Source of the DNA: a virus
Taxonomy: Duplodnaviria; Heunggongvirae; Uroviricota; Caudoviricetes
Virus record (IMG/VR): IMGVR_UViG_3300045988_157791
DNA: 64,000 nt
Reading direction: 5' to 3' (one strand)
Positions within the stretch are counted from its first letter, which is position 1, and each line of letters opens with the position of its first letter. A program made the position numbers and the translations under genes. The notes under the pieces are model-generated. The model ran no database searches and had not been told where the DNA came from. It was given only the letters and a program-made list of their open reading frames with translations. Below are positions 2,573 through 63,319 of the stretch, one piece after another.

Positions 2573-2832
2573 AGTTAATACAGGCTGAATACACAAGAAA
2601 GGTTCTGGAAGTTGATAACCAGGTTTCAAACTAACCTTCGGTTATTAAAAGTCATTTAAGGCCACCAATGCTGGTGGCCTTAATAATTATCGCCCGATTA
2701 CGCTAAGGATCTTTTCCTCAACTGATTTGTTGTTGCGACTAAACTGCCTTGCGTATCTGATGACAGAAGAGGCGTTTTGCTTTCTGACCATCTCGGCTCT
2801 TTCCTTCAGGCGTTTCTTGAAATCGCCCATAT

Positions 2833-3207
2833 TTACCACCAGGCACGGAACGTCAGTCTATTATTGTGAAAGTCGTGGTTCTTAATCAGATCTTCCACAA
2901 GCTCTTTCAACTCCCCCACATCATGCCAGTAACCTTCATCGTACTCCTGACTGCCGAAGAAAAAACCTTCCCGGGTAGGCAAGTACTCTTCGCAATTACT
3001 TTCGTTTATGTGCATCAAATGAGCCTTCAGAAAACAAATGTCATTCATCGTTAATTCTAAAAGCTCACAATTTTCGACTTCACCTACGTTGCGCTCCATC
3101 CACCCAACGAGCGCATTGAACTTACGGAAGTAAGCAACCTGCTTTCTGGATGCCTCGTTATTCAGATCGTTTTTAGGCTGCGTCTCGATATAGATATCAA
3201 GTCCCAT
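2833..3207 (-). CDS. hypothetical protein (124 aa)
   Basis: ATG with AAGGAAA SD (MGLDIYIE...). Confidence 0.5.
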   Translation of the reverse strand: MGLDIYIETQPKNDLNNEASRKQVAYFRKFNALVGWMERNVGEVENCELLELTMNDICFLKAHLMHINESNCEEYLPTREGFFFGSQEYDEGYWHDVGELKELVEDLIKNHDFHNNRLTFRAWW

Positions 3208-3324
3208 GATGGTTTCCTTATTAAGTTGCTTCAGTGAAATCATTTTCACAAATCAGATAAGGCAGAAAACAGATTGTTATCGGGCATAAGAAAATGGCGC
3301 GGTTTACGCGCCATTCAAAGAGGA

Positions 3325-56779: not shown

Positions 56780-57877
56780 AAAATTTACACGAATAAGCTC
56801 TGTTGATAGACGATCTCCCTTAAATTTGTGGTCAATTTCGTCTAAATCCGGTTGCTCTACGATTGATGCGATGTACGTCGAGAAACTTTCTAAGGCGTCT
56901 CGCATCTCGTCCATATAATCGTGCCGGTCGTAGACCCGATCTATCCCCTCAAGACTGTGGTTCATGATTTTACGTGATACCTCCTGGCTTATGCCTAATG
57001 CTGGGAAGTAACTACGCGCAGTACGGCGCAAATCTCGGGGTGTAAATGGCTCAAGCTCCATCAGTTCTGGTCGTTCCAGAATACGACGTAATGCCTGGGC
57101 TATTGCCACTTTAGACATAGGAAGGTCTTTCCCGATTTTTTTATTCGAAGGCACGAGCCACTGGCTGTCTTTACCATATTCGAACAACTCTTCAATACAA
57201 GTGCGCATTAATGAGCTTAAAGGCAGAGAATGCTCACGGGCAGATTTGTTCCTCTTGCCTTGATTCCAAACCCCACGCTTAAGATTGAACTCACTTTTTT
57301 TAGCCCGCAGTACTTCGTCAGGTCGTCTTGCGGATACAAGACATAGCCTGGCCGCCCATTTTGTACCAGCGCACACATTGAAGTAGTCCCATATATTCCA
57401 GAACACCCATACCTCTGCGTCGGTCAGCTTCCGCTCGCGAGGTGTGGGCTTTGCGCCACCGGCAACTTTGTTAAGTGACATATCGTTTAACGGTGACACG
57501 TCTATCATCCCCTGGAAGGCGCACCAGCTAAGGAACTGCTTCATCAGAGAGAAAACGCGGCGGCCCATAACAATTTTGCCATCCAGTATTAGTGGGTTGA
57601 CCAGTTGGTTCACCATGAACCTATTAATGTCACTTACTTTTACATCGGCAATGTGCGGCAAAACATGTATCAAAATACAATGAACAGCGATCTCTGGCCG
57701 ACGTCTGGTTATCAGCAGAGATAAGCGAGTGAATAACATGAATGCGTCCGAGAATCTCATGTCATTGCTGACCTGGGAGATCATAACGGCCTGCATTTGA
57801 GATGCTCTTTCGAGATACTCTATCGCCTCTTTTGAGGTGTTCTCCGCAGCGCGTGCTCTGTCAAAGCTATTTTTCAT
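56774..57877 (-). CDS. tyrosine recombinase / integrase
   Basis: C-terminal catalytic pattern TPRDLRRTA ... HSLEGIDRVYDRHDY (R, H-x-x-R, Y). Confidence 0.75.
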   Translation of the reverse strand: MKNSFDRARAAENTSKEAIEYLERASQMQAVMISQVSNDMRFSDAFMLFTRLSLLITRRRPEIAVHCILIHVLPHIADVKVSDINRFMVNQLVNPLILDGKIVMGRRVFSLMKQFLSWCAFQGMIDVSPLNDMSLNKVAGGAKPTPRERKLTDAEVWVFWNIWDYFNVCAGTKWAARLCLVSARRPDEVLRAKKSEFNLKRGVWNQGKRNKSAREHSLPLSSLMRTCIEELFEYGKDSQWLVPSNKKIGKDLPMSKVAIAQALRRILERPELMELEPFTPRDLRRTARSYFPALGISQEVSRKIMNHSLEGIDRVYDRHDYMDEMRDALESFSTYIASIVEQPDLDEIDHKFKGDRLSTELIRVNFS

Positions 57878-58050
57878 ATGACAATCACCGAGTTACGCCG
57901 ATGCACTGTATAAGTAAACAGTATATTAGGCATAGATTCTTATAGGATCAAGAGTAAAAGTAACTCATTTTCAGCAATGATTCCATACATAGTAGGTATG
58001 GAATCATTTAAGGGAGGAATTTAAATTCTGAGGCGTTATTAATATGATTG

Positions 58051-58461
58051 TTAAGGGTTAGTGAGAGCTTGAAATGCGGCCGCGTAGGTAGCGATATCGA
58101 CCATAATTTTTGGATCTTTCGCGTGCTGATGTGCGTTGTTAGGGAAGATTGCCAATAGGCTATACACATCTTGGAAATGTGCATGTTGACTGTAAACGAG
58201 TGCACGGTCGCTTGTGCAATTGAATCTGCTGCGGCTGCTGGTTCGTTCTTGCTTCGTGAACAAGAGATGAACGTGATAGACGCGGGAGGACACGATAGCA
58301 CCAGGAGCCGTATACGGGCCATCTTTGCCGAATATGGCTGGGTACATGCCTTGTTTAAACGACTTGAAATCGTTGAGTAACGTAATCTCTAAGTCAGGCT
58401 TTATATCGAAGGTCGGCTTTAAAAATTGGGCGTAACTATCACTGTTCCATGTGATCTTCAT
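58051..58461 (-). CDS. YafO-family toxin-like protein
   Basis: Aligns with E. coli YafO as I recall it (DF.S.K, FG.D, H.HL, LVY, LLAI..P..H, AEAF spacing). Confidence 0.55.
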   Translation of the reverse strand: MKITWNSDSYAQFLKPTFDIKPDLEITLLNDFKSFKQGMYPAIFGKDGPYTAPGAIVSSRVYHVHLLFTKQERTSSRSRFNCTSDRALVYSQHAHFQDVYSLLAIFPNNAHQHAKDPKIMVDIATYAAAFQALTNP

Positions 58462-58470
58462 CGTTCAACC

Positions 58471-59079
58471 TCAATGGAATGAGAAGTTGGCGAAGACGTC
58501 CTCATCAATGAGGCCAGTCTGCGATTCGATGACGTCTACGTCGTTAAAACACTGATTTAAAATCAATAGCAGATCAGAGATAGCTAAACGATACTCAGTT
58601 ACAGAATCGCTCAAGCGTTTCAAATATGGATGAGGTTGCTCAGAGTCGCGAATCAACTTGTTAACGAATCCCTCCAAACCACGAATGGTCAGGTCAACGT
58701 TCTTCAGTTCTTCGTAACGACTTTCACCGAAGTTGCTGCGAATCTTTTCCGCTTTCCATCCAGAGATGGCATGGGCTAAGCGAACGTGTTTCGCCGTCAA
58801 TTCTGCGAGCTTGCTTTCAATCTTTGCCAGCTGTGCCGCATCGCGGTTTTCTTGAACAGGAATAGCCGCAGTGCTCACATAGGTTTGTGTTTTGAATCCT
58901 GTGAATTTCGCAGAGGGCTTCATCGTGCCACGGAAGCGTCGATATCCACGCGGTTCAATAAAATCACGCCCAGATTTAGCTGTAGGCTTTGCGTTTGAAA
59001 AGCGTGAAGCGTTAGAGGTCACAGTAGCAAGGGCATTGCTAATGACACTCATATCTTCTAGGCAATTTTCTAAACGCAT
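58471..59079 (-). CDS. hypothetical protein, candidate non-canonical partner of the YafO-like toxin (202 aa)
   Basis: Ends 10 nt before the YafO-like start; no YefM/Phd-like features. Confidence 0.45.
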   Translation of the reverse strand: MRLENCLEDMSVISNALATVTSNASRFSNAKPTAKSGRDFIEPRGYRRFRGTMKPSAKFTGFKTQTYVSTAAIPVQENRDAAQLAKIESKLAELTAKHVRLAHAISGWKAEKIRSNFGESRYEELKNVDLTIRGLEGFVNKLIRDSEQPHPYLKRLSDSVTEYRLAISDLLLILNQCFNDVDVIESQTGLIDEDVFANFSFH

Positions 59080-59174
59080 AAAACCTCTTAACTACTCAAT
59101 GGCTCGTAACTAAGTGTACGCTGTGCTGATGAAAGCTACAAATAATAAATGGCCCCAAAAGGAGCCGTATTGTA

Positions 59175-59420
59175 TTACAGAGTGCTCGCAAAAGCAGCAA
59201 ATTCTGTGTATCCGCCAATCGGCTGGCCATCGATCAGCACTTGGGGGATAGTCTCTACCGGTTTACCAACAATTTCACTAAGTTTTTCCTTGTCGATACC
59301 GGCAGTGGTGATGTCGATGTACTCATAATCACTGTAGCCATGTCCCTTTAGTTGCTTCGCCAGCTCGACCGCACGTTTGCAGTATGAGCAGTTATCTCGT
59401 CCGTAGATAGTGATCGTCAT
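59175..59420 (-). CDS. glutaredoxin-like protein
   Basis: Thioredoxin-fold redox motif CSYC near the N-terminus, 81 aa. Confidence 0.7.
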   Translation of the reverse strand: MTITIYGRDNCSYCKRAVELAKQLKGHGYSDYEYIDITTAGIDKEKLSEIVGKPVETIPQVLIDGQPIGGYTEFAAFASTL

Positions 59421-59593
59421 AACTTAACAAATACCTTTATAAATATTGATTCGAACATATCAGACTATACTACAAACAGATTTTTTTGATAAGTATGTAG
59501 TAACTTATTGGTTAACTAGTAAACAATTGAAGTGATTACGACAATAGATTACAGTAAGGATTGCCTTGAAATGTACATTTTATAGAGGTTTTA

Positions 59594-60502
59594 ATGATTG
59601 GTAAGTTGTCTGATTCTTTGATTGAAAATAAATACAACGAATTTAGAGAAGAAATATCTTTACTTTTTGACTATTTAAATCAGATAAATGATACAACAAA
59701 GAAAAATATAAAACGTCTTCTTAAAGAAGTGGAGTATGCACAGAATCCAGATACTATTATTAATATTAATGAAACTATTAAGATTAAGTGTGGCACAACA
59801 TTAGCTCGCCATTTATGTTCAAACCCATATACAGGTTCAACATTAGAGATAGGTAACAGCGCCATTGATTTAGAAGAAAAGATAAGATTGTGTAATACTT
59901 TGAAAAATAAACAATATCAGTGGGTTATTACTGAAGCCTATGAGTTACTGGAAGACTATATTGAGGCAATATATGTCTATACTGTATGTGTTCGAAATGA
60001 TTTATGGTCCTCAAGTGATTTTGGTAAGGTTGAAGATGATGAAATTGGGAAAAGGGAAGTTTATTACAGATTATTAAAAGCAAAAAGTAACCCATCGAAA
60101 AAAATAACTAAAATTTTCAGAAATAAAATACCTGGCTTCAAAGAGATAGAAACAAACAACAAGATTGGCAAAAACTATCGCTTTAACATCAAGCTAATTG
60201 AACTACTAAGACATACAATAGTACATAATGGTGGACGATTCAACAACACAGAAAAATTTATAACTAAGGTCTTGGATGAATCTGAAATAAGCGGAAAAAA
60301 AAGAGTTATTGGAGAAAGAGTTGTTAGAAACTACATTGCTAAAGTACAAGAAGATGATATTGTAATGCTATTAGAAAGACCATCAGAAATTTTAGGTTCT
60401 TTTGGTTGGCATTTCAATAGAGCAAAATATTTACTAAGTGATATTTTAGAATACTCACTAATCATTAAAGAAGAACTAATATCATATCTAGATAATTATT
60501 AA
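59594..60502 (+). CDS. AT-rich hypothetical protein with an R-x4-H (HEPN-like) motif; possible abortive-infection protein
   Basis: About 30% GC gene in a 48-50% GC backbone; motif ELLRHTIVHNGG. Confidence 0.4.
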   Translation: MIGKLSDSLIENKYNEFREEISLLFDYLNQINDTTKKNIKRLLKEVEYAQNPDTIININETIKIKCGTTLARHLCSNPYTGSTLEIGNSAIDLEEKIRLCNTLKNKQYQWVITEAYELLEDYIEAIYVYTVCVRNDLWSSSDFGKVEDDEIGKREVYYRLLKAKSNPSKKITKIFRNKIPGFKEIETNNKIGKNYRFNIKLIELLRHTIVHNGGRFNNTEKFITKVLDESEISGKKRVIGERVVRNYIAKVQEDDIVMLLERPSEILGSFGWHFNRAKYLLSDILEYSLIIKEELISYLDNY

Positions 60503-60921: not shown

Positions 60922-61611
60922 TTATACGAGATAACACAATACTGGCACACCATTGCGTTCGGCTAATTTATTAACGCTGTAAAGAAACTCAACGACTTTG
61001 TCCTTATTCCCTGCCCACGATGGCAGCCGACCATTTCCAGAGGCGACATCCTTCGCTGAATGAATCTTATTCGCATGATGCATTCTGGTTTTAGCCTTAA
61101 TGTATCCCTGAAAGAACAGAAAGGCGATATACGCAATAATTGATATGCCTTTTGTTGGCCACGCAAAAAACAAAGCAGGAAAAAAGAGAAGAGTAGTTAT
61201 CATACCAATTTTTAGTGAAAGTTGAGCAATAATAAAAAGTATAAGCGCAATCCCGAGAGTCCACATAGTGAAAGGTACACCTTCAGTCTCTCCATTCAAG
61301 ATATACACACTATCGTCCATAGCTGCAAGGTGAACATATAAGAACACAACAGGGGTGATAAATGTTCGCACCTCTTTAAATCGTGTAATCATCTTGGCAA
61401 TCCAGTAAGCTAAAAGAACACTGGCAAATGACTCTGCAAGGATTTCGGCAACTATCGTGGATGTAACTTCAATAAAAATAAACGACAAGAGAAGATACAG
61501 GGTAATACAGTATCCAAAGTATATTGATTTATTGAATAGAATTTTCTTCACAAAAATTCCTGGTGAAAGAATCATTAATCGAAAATTATATAACAATCTA
61601 ATAACCTCCAA
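60922..61611 (-). CDS. multi-pass membrane protein (AT-rich)
   Basis: Several hydrophobic helices; low GC. Confidence 0.5.
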   Translation of the reverse strand: MEVIRLLYNFRLMILSPGIFVKKILFNKSIYFGYCITLYLLLSFIFIEVTSTIVAEILAESFASVLLAYWIAKMITRFKEVRTFITPVVFLYVHLAAMDDSVYILNGETEGVPFTMWTLGIALILFIIAQLSLKIGMITTLLFFPALFFAWPTKGISIIAYIAFLFFQGYIKAKTRMHHANKIHSAKDVASGNGRLPSWAGNKDKVVEFLYSVNKLAERNGVPVLCYLV

Positions 61612-61833: not shown

Positions 61834-62733
61834 ATGAACAAGGCCAGAAACCACCATTACCTTTCTCAATGCTATTTAAGAGGATTTACGAAAAATGGAG
61901 GGGTTAAATCAAATATAATAGCTTTTGATTTGAAGAAAAAAACAACTTTTGAGGCAAAGCCTCGAAATGTTGGCGGTATAAGAGATTTTAACAGAATAGA
62001 TATTGAGGGAGTCGATCAAAATATCCTTGAAAGTACATTGGCAAATTTCGAGGGTAATGTTGCAACTGAACTTAAAAACTTAAAACAGGGTATGCCTTTC
62101 TCTGGTCAAACTAAGGATATAATCCTTTCTTTCATTTCGTTACTGGCCGTCAGAACACCAGCTATGCGTGATCACATGGAATCACAAATAGTTAAAATGG
62201 TAGATATGGTCGCGAAAATGACAGCTTCAGATGAAGACAGATACAACGATACTATTCGAGAAGCTGCTTTTACTGTTGATGTATCATTTGAAAAGATAAA
62301 AAACTTTATTGGAGGCAGTCAATACTCTATTTCTGTCAAGCGTGAGTTTCTTATCGCTGCTGAAATGAAAATATCTCGAGCCATTGACAATGCACTTCAT
62401 TGTCGCGACTGGCGTCTCTTCCGTTCTACAGAAGAATCAGGAACTTTCATAACTTCAGATAATCCAGTAGGTCTGATGTGGACAGATGAAAGTGACGGAT
62501 CACCTGGTTTTTTGGTTGAAAATACATGTGTTCTTTTCCCTATATCCAAAGATATTATTTTGTTTGGAGACTACGGTGGTAGAACTGGTGAACATTATGC
62601 GAACAAAAATATAGCTTCACATTTTAATGCATGTGTCATTTCTAATGCAGTAGAAAGAGTATTTTCTGCAGATCGAACATTTAATTACATTAACGTAGAT
62701 GGTGTAATTAAGCAGGGAAATAACCTCGTGTAA
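61834..62733 (+). CDS. DUF4238-like protein (candidate single-gene antiphage protein)
   Basis: N-terminal HHYLSQCYLRGF resembles the HHY..Q.YL+.F signature I recall for DUF4238; low GC. Confidence 0.5.
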   Translation: MNKARNHHYLSQCYLRGFTKNGGVKSNIIAFDLKKKTTFEAKPRNVGGIRDFNRIDIEGVDQNILESTLANFEGNVATELKNLKQGMPFSGQTKDIILSFISLLAVRTPAMRDHMESQIVKMVDMVAKMTASDEDRYNDTIREAAFTVDVSFEKIKNFIGGSQYSISVKREFLIAAEMKISRAIDNALHCRDWRLFRSTEESGTFITSDNPVGLMWTDESDGSPGFLVENTCVLFPISKDIILFGDYGGRTGEHYANKNIASHFNACVISNAVERVFSADRTFNYINVDGVIKQGNNLV

Positions 62734-62764: not shown

Positions 62765-63319
62765 TTATTTTATTTTATCTTCTTCTAAACGAGAAAATTT
62801 AAATTGTTTATCGGTGATGGTGAGTAGTGTTACACCTTCCTTTTCGTGTAAAAAACCGGCACCGTTTGACACCATAATCAATCTATCCTTCCCTCGAAAG
62901 ATTTCATAATATTTACCACCTCCACAAGTTTTAGTTTCAATACAGTCCATGCCAGATACTGCTTCTCTGTTAAAAATACGATCTTTTGTAGCAACGGGTT
63001 TTCCGTACTCCTTTGTCAGCATTTCACTTATCTGGATGAATGTATACTTACCAACATTACTGGTTAATGACATTTCGACTTTTCCGTCGATCAGATTGCC
63101 ATTCGTATGCGGTTCTTTTTCAGTCGGGGTATTTTTATCTTGAAGAACAAACACTTCAACATTTTGTGTTAGCTTCTTGAATTGGGCTTTATAATTTTGT
63201 TCAAGTTCACTTTTATCTTTGCCTATTAACGTTAATTCATCTATTTCAGATTCGTTACACCCTGTTAGCGTTAACGCAATTATTAGAGATGCGAAAATAT
63301 TGAGATGGCACTTCTTCAT
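62765..63319 (-). CDS. lipoprotein (AT-rich, 184 aa)
   Basis: Signal peptide with lipobox LTGC. Confidence 0.5.
   Translation of the reverse strand: MKKCHLNIFASLIIALTLTGCNESEIDELTLIGKDKSELEQNYKAQFKKLTQNVEVFVLQDKNTPTEKEPHTNGNLIDGKVEMSLTSNVGKYTFIQISEMLTKEYGKPVATKDRIFNREAVSGMDCIETKTCGGGKYYEIFRGKDRLIMVSNGAGFLHEKEGVTLLTITDKQFKFSRLEEDKIK

What the first reader, a model, noticed from the sequence alone, without database searches (positions are those of the whole stretch)
58051..59079. YafO-like toxin paired with a non-canonical 202-aa upstream protein
The downstream gene aligns with YafO, a ribosome-dependent mRNA interferase. In E. coli YafO is neutralised by the small YefM/Phd-type YafN encoded upstream. 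Here the tightly coupled upstream gene (10-nt gap) encodes a 202-aa protein with no YefM-like features. It may be a new antitoxin type or a fused regulator, placed next to the integrase and XRE regulator as an addiction or abortive-infection module.
Basis: partly seen in the sequence, partly recalled or inferred. Interest (0 to 1): 0.58.

Follow-up and report, generated by a model that had tools for sequence, protein, structure and literature searches.

The report
YafO-type toxin with undescribed helical partner
A two-gene cassette on an E. coli phage-plasmid pairs a RelE-like RNA-cutting toxin of the YafO family with an unnamed 202-residue helical protein that always travels with it and is most likely a new kind of antitoxin: a modest extension of a well-known theme.

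Summary
On the minus strand a 202-aa ORF (58471-59079) sits 9 nt upstream of a 136-aa ORF (58051-58461).

**Toxin.** The 136-aa protein is a clear Pfam YafO_toxin member and keeps every family-wide invariant residue. Its model (pLDDT 96) has the RelE/HigB/YoeB fold. It is 36% identical to E. coli YafO and forms its own clade.

**Partner.** The 202-aa protein has no Pfam, NCBIfam, PADLOC or PDB match and no similarity to YafN. Its model is an N-terminal helix, a variable basic linker, a three-helix bundle and a disordered but highly conserved acidic-aromatic C-terminal tail.

**Linkage.** The partner family is tiny: 11 cluster representatives among 1.84 billion. Every member whose context I could read lies directly upstream of a YafO-family gene, in phage-plasmids and in unrelated chromosomal sites. 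The two proteins co-diverge (r = 0.89), with the partner evolving faster. A second group of long upstream partners in Pseudomonas and phage contigs may be remotely related.

**Context.** The window is an SSU5-like phage-plasmid. The cassette lies in a variable cargo region beside the integrase.

**Verdict.** Most likely a type II toxin-antitoxin module with an undescribed antitoxin family. Neutralisation and toxicity are inferred, not shown. RefSeq already names the toxin. This is a new variant of a known kind, of moderate interest.

The parts
58471..59079 (-). 202-aa partner, the putative antitoxin. Model: N-terminal helix (3-28), variable basic disordered linker (about 29-74, pI 10.7), three-helix bundle (75-178), and a disordered but highly conserved acidic-aromatic tail (181-202, ESQTGLIDEDVFANFSFH).
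   Evidence: ORF and SD. No Pfam, NCBIfam, PADLOC or PDB hit. PHROG 13546, function unknown. AF2 model. Foldseek gives only generic helical bundles, E >= 0.3. Conservation pattern. Charge profile.
58051..58461 (-). 136-aa YafO-family toxin with a RelE/ParE (BECR) fold, a putative mRNA endonuclease.
58462..58470 (-). 9-nt intergenic gap. The partner's TGA stop overlaps the GAGG ribosome-binding site of the toxin, which suggests translational coupling.
   Evidence: Read directly from the sequence. Gaps of 7-12 nt are seen in all homologous loci.
59113..59141 (-). Promoter-like element: TTGTAG (59141-59136), 17-nt spacer, TACACT (59118-59113), upstream of the partner gene.
   Evidence: Too weak for the consensus scan to report. 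However, TTGTCG-17-TACACT/TAAACT is conserved at the same place in Kluyvera, Klebsiella phage, E. roggenkampii and Erwinia loci. The promoter role is inferred.
59151..59166 (-). Terminator-like hairpin after grxA. It separates the cassette from the upstream glutaredoxin gene.
   Evidence: Consensus scan. The hairpin and a grxA 3' remnant travel with the cassette into chromosomal sites.

Best explanation
This is a bicistronic type II toxin-antitoxin cassette carried as accessory cargo by an SSU5-like phage-plasmid. The downstream 136-aa protein is a YafO-family member of the RelE/ParE superfamily. When free, it would cleave mRNA and arrest translation. The upstream 202-aa protein is its cognate antitoxin and belongs to a previously undescribed, all-helical family that replaces the Phd/YefM-type YafN of the canonical system. 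The two genes are made from one transcript, probably by coupled translation. I infer that the partner binds and blocks the toxin, most likely through its most conserved part: the end of bundle helix 3 plus the disordered acidic-aromatic C-terminal tail. That tail would fold onto the basic toxin in the way RelB, YefM and YafN tails do. On a low-copy phage-plasmid the expected outcome is post-segregational killing (addiction), possibly also abortive infection. What is shown: gene structure, toxin family and fold, absence of known domains in the partner, strict linkage and co-divergence. What is inferred: toxicity, direct binding, which segment neutralises, and the biological role.

For: Linkage: the partner family has only 11 representatives among 1.84 billion clusters. 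Every member with readable context lies 7-12 nt upstream of a YafO_toxin gene. In the other direction, every toxin of this clade found in 185,579 species genomes has the partner upstream. Contexts differ: phage-plasmids, and Brenneria, Samsonia, Pectobacterium, Erwinia, Pluralibacter and E. roggenkampii chromosomes.

Co-evolution: pairwise identities correlate at r = 0.89, and the partner is less conserved than the toxin in 44 of 45 pairs, as is typical of antitoxins. Both genes show dN/dS below 0.2. In Acerihabitans both genes are truncated together.

Partner architecture: the best-conserved segment is a C-terminal tail predicted to be disordered and acidic (pI 4.05) against a basic toxin (pI 9.0).

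Other points: canonical YafO relatives carry a Phd/YefM gene at the same position. Leplae et al. 2011 already recorded YafO toxins paired with non-Phd 'guilt-by-association' partners. Toxin-antitoxin systems are part of the SSU5 shell genome (PMC7969092).
Against: There is no direct evidence of toxicity or neutralisation. A complex prediction could not be run. The partner has no recognisable DNA-binding domain, and no palindromic operator was found, so the usual autoregulation is unsupported. At 160-205 aa, with a folded helical bundle, the partner is larger than most antitoxins, which leaves room for an additional or different role. The resemblance of its tail to the YafN C-terminus is only visual and is not recovered by profile comparison. 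Part of the context diversity is not independent: the E. roggenkampii and Pluralibacter copies keep a grxA remnant and so derive from a phage-plasmid-like source.
Confidence: 0.65

Rival explanations
1. The partner is not a simple sequestering antitoxin. Instead it is a sensor or switch for a defence system. Its helical bundle would bind a phage protein, or be a protease target, releasing the YafO-like RNase to abort infection. The cassette would then be mainly an anti-phage module and not an addiction module.
For: The partner is large and has a folded domain with no DNA-binding signature. The cassette sits in a variable cargo region with a PADLOC DUF4238-Pers gene. In Brenneria it lies beside a KAP/STAND-like NTPase. 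A related pair sits as a moron inside a phage tail gene block. RelE-superfamily TA modules are known to act in abortive infection (PMC11980606).
Against: No PADLOC model matches either protein. Nothing in the sequence identifies a ligand or a phage trigger. This reading still requires the partner to neutralise the toxin, so it refines the main explanation and does not replace it.
Confidence: 0.15
2. The two genes are linked but are not a toxin-antitoxin pair. The YafO-like protein would be non-toxic or act on a specific target (for example a phage or plasmid transcript), and the 202-aa protein would be a co-factor or adaptor that works with it.
For: Toxicity is untested. The clade is only 36% identical to E. 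coli YafO and carries a clade-specific N-terminal segment. The partner resembles no known antitoxin.
Against: All family-wide invariant residues, including three histidines and a tyrosine, are retained. The fold is that of ribosome-dependent RNase toxins. The upstream position, short gap and faster-evolving partner fit the antitoxin pattern. Canonical relatives have an antitoxin in exactly that position.
Confidence: 0.12
3. The cassette is decaying or orphaned. The toxin would be held in check by something else, such as host chromosomal YafN or an unseen RNA, and the 202-aa ORF would be an unrelated conserved hypothetical gene.
For: E. coli carries chromosomal yafNO. Truncated copies of either gene occur in some plasmids.
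Against: Hosts include Klebsiella, Enterobacter, Citrobacter, Erwinia and Brenneria. Linkage is strict in every context seen. Both genes show purifying selection. No Rfam RNA is found in the region. No other ORF is conserved across loci.
Confidence: 0.05

Closest known systems
E. coli YafN-YafO (dinB-yafN-yafO-yafP operon), a type II TA system
   Same: The toxin belongs to the same Pfam family (PF13957) and keeps the same invariant residues. The gene order is the same, antitoxin then toxin, with a very short gap (2 nt in K-12, 9 nt here).
   Different: The toxin is only 36% identical and falls far below NCBI's YafO equivalog cut-off (58.8 against 153 bits). It forms a separate clade with a distinct N-terminal segment. 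The partner is 202 aa and all-helical, with no Phd/YefM domain and no detectable similarity to YafN. The cassette is on a phage-plasmid and not in an SOS operon.
RelE/ParE (BECR-fold) superfamily toxins: HigB2, HigB1, YoeB, YafQ, RelE
   Different: Sequence identity to these toxins is 5-16%. Their antitoxins (HigA, YefM, DinJ, RelB) all carry HTH, Phd or RHH DNA-binding domains, and the partner here has none.
Long upstream partners of a second YafO clade (Pseudomonas sp. 148P and phage-derived metagenome contigs; loci L026, L027, L112, L113)
   Same: These are 165-186-aa helical proteins without Pfam matches, lying directly upstream of YafO-family toxins that share the N-terminal extension. 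Profile-profile alignment to the partner family is collinear over 70 columns, covering bundle helices 2-3 and the Q-x-F ... SQ motif, at E 1.8e-4 and probability 48%.
   Different: Homology is only suggestive. They lack the FANFSFH-type tail and end in a different conserved helix.
Antitoxins without a DNA-binding domain, such as PaaA2 of PaaR2-PaaA2-ParE2 or Panacea-domain antitoxins (recalled from general knowledge, not tested here)
   Same: There is precedent for neutralising proteins that lack an autoregulatory DNA-binding module, and for free swapping of antitoxin domains between toxin families.
   Different: No sequence or fold relation was found. No third regulator gene is conserved with this cassette.

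Membership tests
YafO toxin family (Pfam PF13957) | Matches the family HMM above the gathering threshold | tested here: met
   79.1 bits against a cut-off of 25, E 2.8e-22, covering profile positions 2-100 of 101.
YafO toxin family (Pfam PF13957) | Ortholog of E. coli YafO (NCBIfam equivalog NF007377) | tested here: not met
   58.8 bits against a cut-off of 153. Identity is 36%. It forms a separate clade in the NJ tree.
YafO toxin family (Pfam PF13957) | Retains the residues that are invariant across the family | tested here: met
   F32 P41 G45 H63 H65 L88 Y90 H111 are invariant in 47 diverse members and present here. Their catalytic role is inferred.
YafO toxin family (Pfam PF13957) | RelE/ParE (BECR) fold | tested here: met
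YafO toxin family (Pfam PF13957) | Growth inhibition by mRNA cleavage | not testable with these tools
   Needs an expression assay and RNA mapping.
YafN-YafO system | Phd/YefM-type antitoxin (YafN) encoded upstream | tested here: not met
   No PF02604 hit, no BLASTP alignment, and hhalign E 0.27 on an irrelevant segment. Canonical relatives do have this antitoxin.
Type II toxin-antitoxin module | Two adjacent co-oriented genes with a minimal gap, inherited as a unit across contexts | tested here: met
   9-nt gap with the stop overlapping the SD. The pair is found intact in phage-plasmids and several unrelated chromosomal sites.
Type II toxin-antitoxin module | Antitoxin evolves faster than the toxin and co-diverges with it | tested here: met
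   r = 0.89. The partner is less conserved in 44 of 45 locus pairs. Mean identity is 46% for the partner and 58% for the toxin.
Type II toxin-antitoxin module | Antitoxin carries a DNA-binding domain and represses its own promoter through an operator | tested here: inconclusive
   No HTH, RHH, Phd or AbrB signature. No inverted repeat in the promoter region. A conserved promoter-like element exists. A basic linker (pI 10.7) is present but poorly conserved.
Type II toxin-antitoxin module | Antitoxin protein binds and neutralises the toxin | not testable with these tools
Co-expression and pull-down assays are needed.
Known anti-phage defence systems (PADLOC-DB v2) | Either protein matches a defence-system model | tested here: not met
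   No PADLOC family for either protein.

The most novel reading that the evidence does not exclude
The 202-aa protein founds a new antitoxin superfamily for the YafO branch of RelE-like toxins, possibly including the remote Pseudomonas and phage group. It would have no DNA-binding module, would neutralise through a conserved acidic-aromatic C-terminal peptide, and would use its helical bundle as a sensor that releases the RNase on phage infection or plasmid loss. That would make it a widespread but unrecognised stabilisation or defence determinant of the roughly 110-kb Klebsiella and E. coli phage-plasmids.
Probability: 0.3. Interest if true: 0.55.

Novelty: new variant of a known kind. Interest (0 to 1): 0.4.

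Why it matters
YafO is one of the least studied RelE-type toxins. It has no solved structure, and only one antitoxin type (YafN) has been studied. A second, unrelated partner family for the same toxin fold would add a data point on how antitoxin domains are swapped. It would also offer a natural system for finding which toxin surface must be covered.

In practice, the cassette is present in 317 PLSDB plasmids, 273 of them Klebsiella and nearly all SSU5-like phage-plasmids of about 110 kb, which circulate in clinical Enterobacteriaceae. If it is an addiction or abortive-infection module, it helps explain their persistence.

Conceptually it stays within the well-established picture of modular type II TA systems.

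Tried and rejected
- **Complex prediction.** I tried the in-frame read-through of both genes and a paired alignment of linker-fused sequences from 10 loci.
- **Relation of the partner to YafN.** BLASTP found nothing. hhalign gave E 0.27 and did not align the tails. Both proteins end in an acidic stretch followed by Φ-x-x-F: YafN ends in [ST]D.[DE][LF].[DEQ]F.E and the partner ends in IDEDVFANFSFH. I treat this as a lead only, because the partner does not match a pattern derived from YafN alone.
- **Fold of the partner.** Foldseek against the PDB gave only generic or designed helical bundles at E >= 0.3. I rejected these as uninformative.
- **Weak Pfam hits of the partner.** Hits such as Bunya_nucleocap and CMS1 are below threshold and inconsistent across family members. 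Rejected.
- **Operator search.** There are no inverted repeats upstream. Two direct repeats, TAGTTA[CA]GAG, are not conserved beyond close relatives.
- **Hidden RNA component.** No Rfam match in 57000-60000.
- **Survey of the whole YafO family in genomes.** The mixed alignment was too divergent for pattern search, so only the clade-specific scan was run.
- **Natural knock-outs.** I tried to find plasmids with a disrupted partner and check the state of the toxin. No usable record was located, and the context look-ups were exhausted.
- **XRE regulator and integrase as parts of the module.** Rejected, because both are present in relatives that lack the cassette.

Full report
**What is in the sequence**

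On the minus strand, a 202-codon ORF (59079 to 58471) is followed after 9 nt by a 136-codon ORF (58461 to 58051). AAGAGG lies 4 nt upstream of the first ATG. The TGA stop of the first gene overlaps a GAGG that serves the second ATG, an arrangement typical of coupled translation. Against the Kluyvera copy both genes have dN/dS of 0.16-0.19, so both are real coding genes under purifying selection.

**Where the window comes from**

The region is 99.5-99.8% identical to E. coli plasmids of about 110-120 kb (for example pRM9975-1) and to 'Escherichia phage CMS-2020a'. It is about 79% identical to Klebsiella phage-plasmids such as pJN2-26. These are SSU5/pHCM2-type phage-plasmids. RefSeq annotates the pair as 'hypothetical protein' plus 'type II toxin-antitoxin system YafO family toxin'. 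It is flanked by a GrxA glutaredoxin on one side and a tyrosine integrase and an HTH regulator on the other.

**The downstream protein**

- It matches Pfam YafO_toxin at 79 bits against a cut-off of 25.
- It reaches only 58.8 bits on NCBI's E. coli YafO equivalog model, whose cut-off is 153.
- It is 36% identical to K-12 YafO over residues 28-131.
- In a family-wide search (119 clusters) there is a clean break. The present clade is at 44% identity or more over the full length. Canonical YafN-linked proteins are at 39% or less and cover only about three quarters of the query. An NJ tree separates the two.
- All eight residues invariant across 47 diverse family members (F32, P41, G45, H63, H65, L88, Y90, H111) are present.
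- No YafO structure has been solved.
- The AlphaFold model built from that alignment is very confident, at pLDDT 96.2.

This agrees with the literature. A 2025 review lists PF_YafO among the 13 BECR-fold RelE/ParE families and gives the gene order as antitoxin then toxin. It describes YafO as an mRNA-degrading toxin and notes that its ribosome dependence is still debated (PMC11980606). So the 'YafO-like toxin' part of the finding is solid at the level of family and fold. Toxicity itself is untested.

**The upstream protein**

It has no significant match in Pfam, NCBIfam, PADLOC or PDB sequences. Its only family is PHROG 13546, 'unknown function'. It shows no BLASTP alignment to YafN, and a profile-profile comparison with nine diverse YafN sequences gives E 0.27 on an irrelevant segment.

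The AlphaFold model shows four parts:
- a helix at residues 3-28;
- a disordered stretch at 29-74;
- a three-helix bundle at 75-178 (pLDDT 77-87);
- a disordered tail at 181-202.

Alignments show that the N-terminal helix and the C-terminal 45 residues are the conserved parts. The linker is basic (pI 10.7) and variable in both sequence and length. The tail ESQTGLIDEDVFANFSFH (pI 4.05) is retained even in a homolog that is only 25% identical overall. Foldseek finds nothing beyond generic helical bundles. No DNA-binding motif is evident.

**How tightly the two genes are linked**

The partner family is very small.
- A word-indexed search found 27 clusters, all at 58% identity or more.
- An exhaustive profile search of 1.84 billion cluster representatives found only 11 hits.
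- Every member whose neighbourhood I could read lies 7-12 nt upstream of a YafO_toxin gene, including the most distant members at 25-41% identity.
- In the other direction, a scan of one genome per species (185,579 species) with the toxin clade found five loci: Kluyvera, Erwinia, Samsonia, Pectobacterium and Acerihabitans. All have the partner upstream. In Acerihabitans both genes are truncated.

Contexts range from phage-plasmids to chromosomal sites next to unrelated metabolic genes. Two of the chromosomal copies (E. roggenkampii and Pluralibacter) still carry a remnant of the grxA 3' end and its hairpin, so they derive from a phage-plasmid-like source and are not fully independent.

Across ten loci, the pairwise identities of partner and toxin correlate at r = 0.89. 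The partner is the less conserved of the two in 44 of 45 comparisons, the usual asymmetry of antitoxin and toxin.

**Regulatory signals**

A terminator-like hairpin follows grxA at 59166-59151. Between it and the partner gene lies a weak promoter-like element, TTGTAG-17-TACACT. It is conserved as TTGTCG-17-TACACT/TAAACT in four other loci, including non-phage-plasmid ones. I found no inverted repeat that could serve as an operator and no known RNA family.

**Wider picture of YafO partners**

- Canonical relatives (E. coli, Klebsiella, Vibrio and metagenomic) all have a roughly 97-aa Phd/YefM protein upstream.
- A Pseudomonas beijingensis member has unrelated small ORFs upstream.
- A further clade (Pseudomonas sp. 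148P and phage-derived contigs, one of them inside a tail-gene block) has 165-186-aa helical partners without Pfam matches.
- The toxins of that clade share the N-terminal extension seen in the present clade.
- Their partners align collinearly with the present partner family over 70 columns. The E-value improved from 0.0021 with two sequences to 1.8e-4 with four, at 48% probability. This suggests, but does not establish, an older superfamily of long helical YafO partners.

Leplae et al. (2011) had already noted that YafO toxins pair with Phd and also with unclassified 'guilt-by-association' partners. I found no paper that describes this partner family.

**Most likely mechanism**

The best reading is a type II TA cassette in which the 202-aa protein sequesters the RelE-fold RNase. 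Which part neutralises is an inference from three facts. The tail and the end of helix 3 are the most conserved segment. The tail is predicted to be disordered on its own. It is acidic, facing a basic toxin. In RelB, YefM and YafN-type antitoxins the C-terminal tail is the toxin-binding element (general knowledge; RelB is described in PMC11980606).

YafN and the partner both end in an acidic run followed by Φ-x-x-F. This likeness is post hoc and is not supported by profile comparison. The role of the helical bundle and the N-terminal helix is open. They could mediate oligomerisation, give a second toxin contact, sense a trigger, or carry a cryptic regulatory function.

**Biological role**

- The cassette is accessory. 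Close relatives (phages Cyrano and PhiR41_1) share the integrase side up to window position 58008 and then carry different genes.
- The same variable stretch in the window holds a DUF4238 gene that matches a PADLOC candidate defence model.
- The partner gene is found in 317 PLSDB plasmids (273 Klebsiella, 15 Enterobacter, 13 E. coli, 11 Citrobacter) and in four phage records.
- TA systems are reported as part of the SSU5 'shell' genome (PMC7969092).

Addiction of a low-copy phage-plasmid is the simplest role. Abortive infection is a plausible addition. Neither was tested.

**Verdict**

The toxin is a known kind that is already annotated. The partner is an undescribed family with the genomic behaviour of an antitoxin but no experimental support. 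This is a new variant of a known kind and is of moderate interest.

Noticed in passing
window 57976-58008: A lox-like site, AATGATTCCATAC-ATAGTAG-GTATGGAATCATT, has perfect 13-bp inverted arms around a 7-bp spacer and lies between the toxin stop and the integrase start. It occurs once per genome, next to the integrase, in all SSU5-like phage records hit. It marks the exact point where similarity to cassette-free relatives ends. The arms are conserved but the spacer varies (Kluyvera), and in PhiR41_1 the spacer is the reverse complement relative to the integrase flank. It is probably the integrase's recombination or dimer-resolution site, and possibly a cargo-exchange boundary. In the transcript it would also form a 13-bp hairpin (z = -4.3).
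   Followed up: partly
window 61834-62733 (+): A 299-aa DUF4238 protein (Pfam E 2e-40) matches the PADLOC candidate defence model 'DUF4238-Pers' at E 3.4e-95. It lies in the same variable region as the cassette, together with unknown ORFs at 59594-60502, 60922-61611 and 62765-63319.
   Followed up: no
L012 3343-3463 (Pluralibacter gergoviae chromosome) and L006 3259-3379 (Enterobacter roggenkampii): Chromosomal copies of the cassette keep a remnant of the grxA 3' end and its terminator hairpin upstream. This shows they were acquired from an SSU5-like phage-plasmid context. In Pluralibacter the promoter-like element is deleted.
   Followed up: partly
L026 1980-2941, L027 2003-2935, L112 302-1297, L113 1430-2444: A second clade of YafO-family toxins (144-147 aa, from Pseudomonas and phage-derived contigs) has its own 165-186-aa helical upstream partners without any Pfam match. 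One pair sits inside a phage tail gene block. Profile comparison suggests remote homology to the partner family of this window (E 1.8e-4, probability 48%).
   Followed up: partly
proteins P0158, P0160, P0161, P0165, P0166, P0168 (Klebsiella contigs of about 110 kb); P0020, P0027: N-terminally shortened versions of the partner (136-159 aa, starting at internal Met codons) are annotated in more than 20 Klebsiella phage-plasmid contigs. C-terminally truncated versions are single occurrences. If real, this means the N-terminal helix and linker are dispensable and the C-terminal part is not. The state of the toxin gene in those contigs was not checked.
   Followed up: partly
window 58462-58473: The two ORFs are in the same reading frame, separated only by TGA-GGT-TGA-ACG. 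The same in-frame arrangement with a 9-nt gap recurs in the Brenneria, E. roggenkampii, Kluyvera, Erwinia and Samsonia loci, but not in L014 or L016. It is probably a by-product of the coupled stop/SD/start arrangement.
   Followed up: no
L030 (K. variicola plasmid CP133154.1) 2500-3520; L024 (Acerihabitans) 2704-3237: These are degraded copies of the cassette in which both genes are broken by frameshifts or truncations. This fits joint decay of the pair.
   Followed up: partly
L003 5708-7258 (Brenneria goodwinii chromosome): In the Brenneria, Samsonia and Pectobacterium context the cassette lies two genes away from a 517-aa KAP/STAND-like P-loop NTPase (weak Pfam hits). This hints at a defence-island setting there too.
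   Followed up: no
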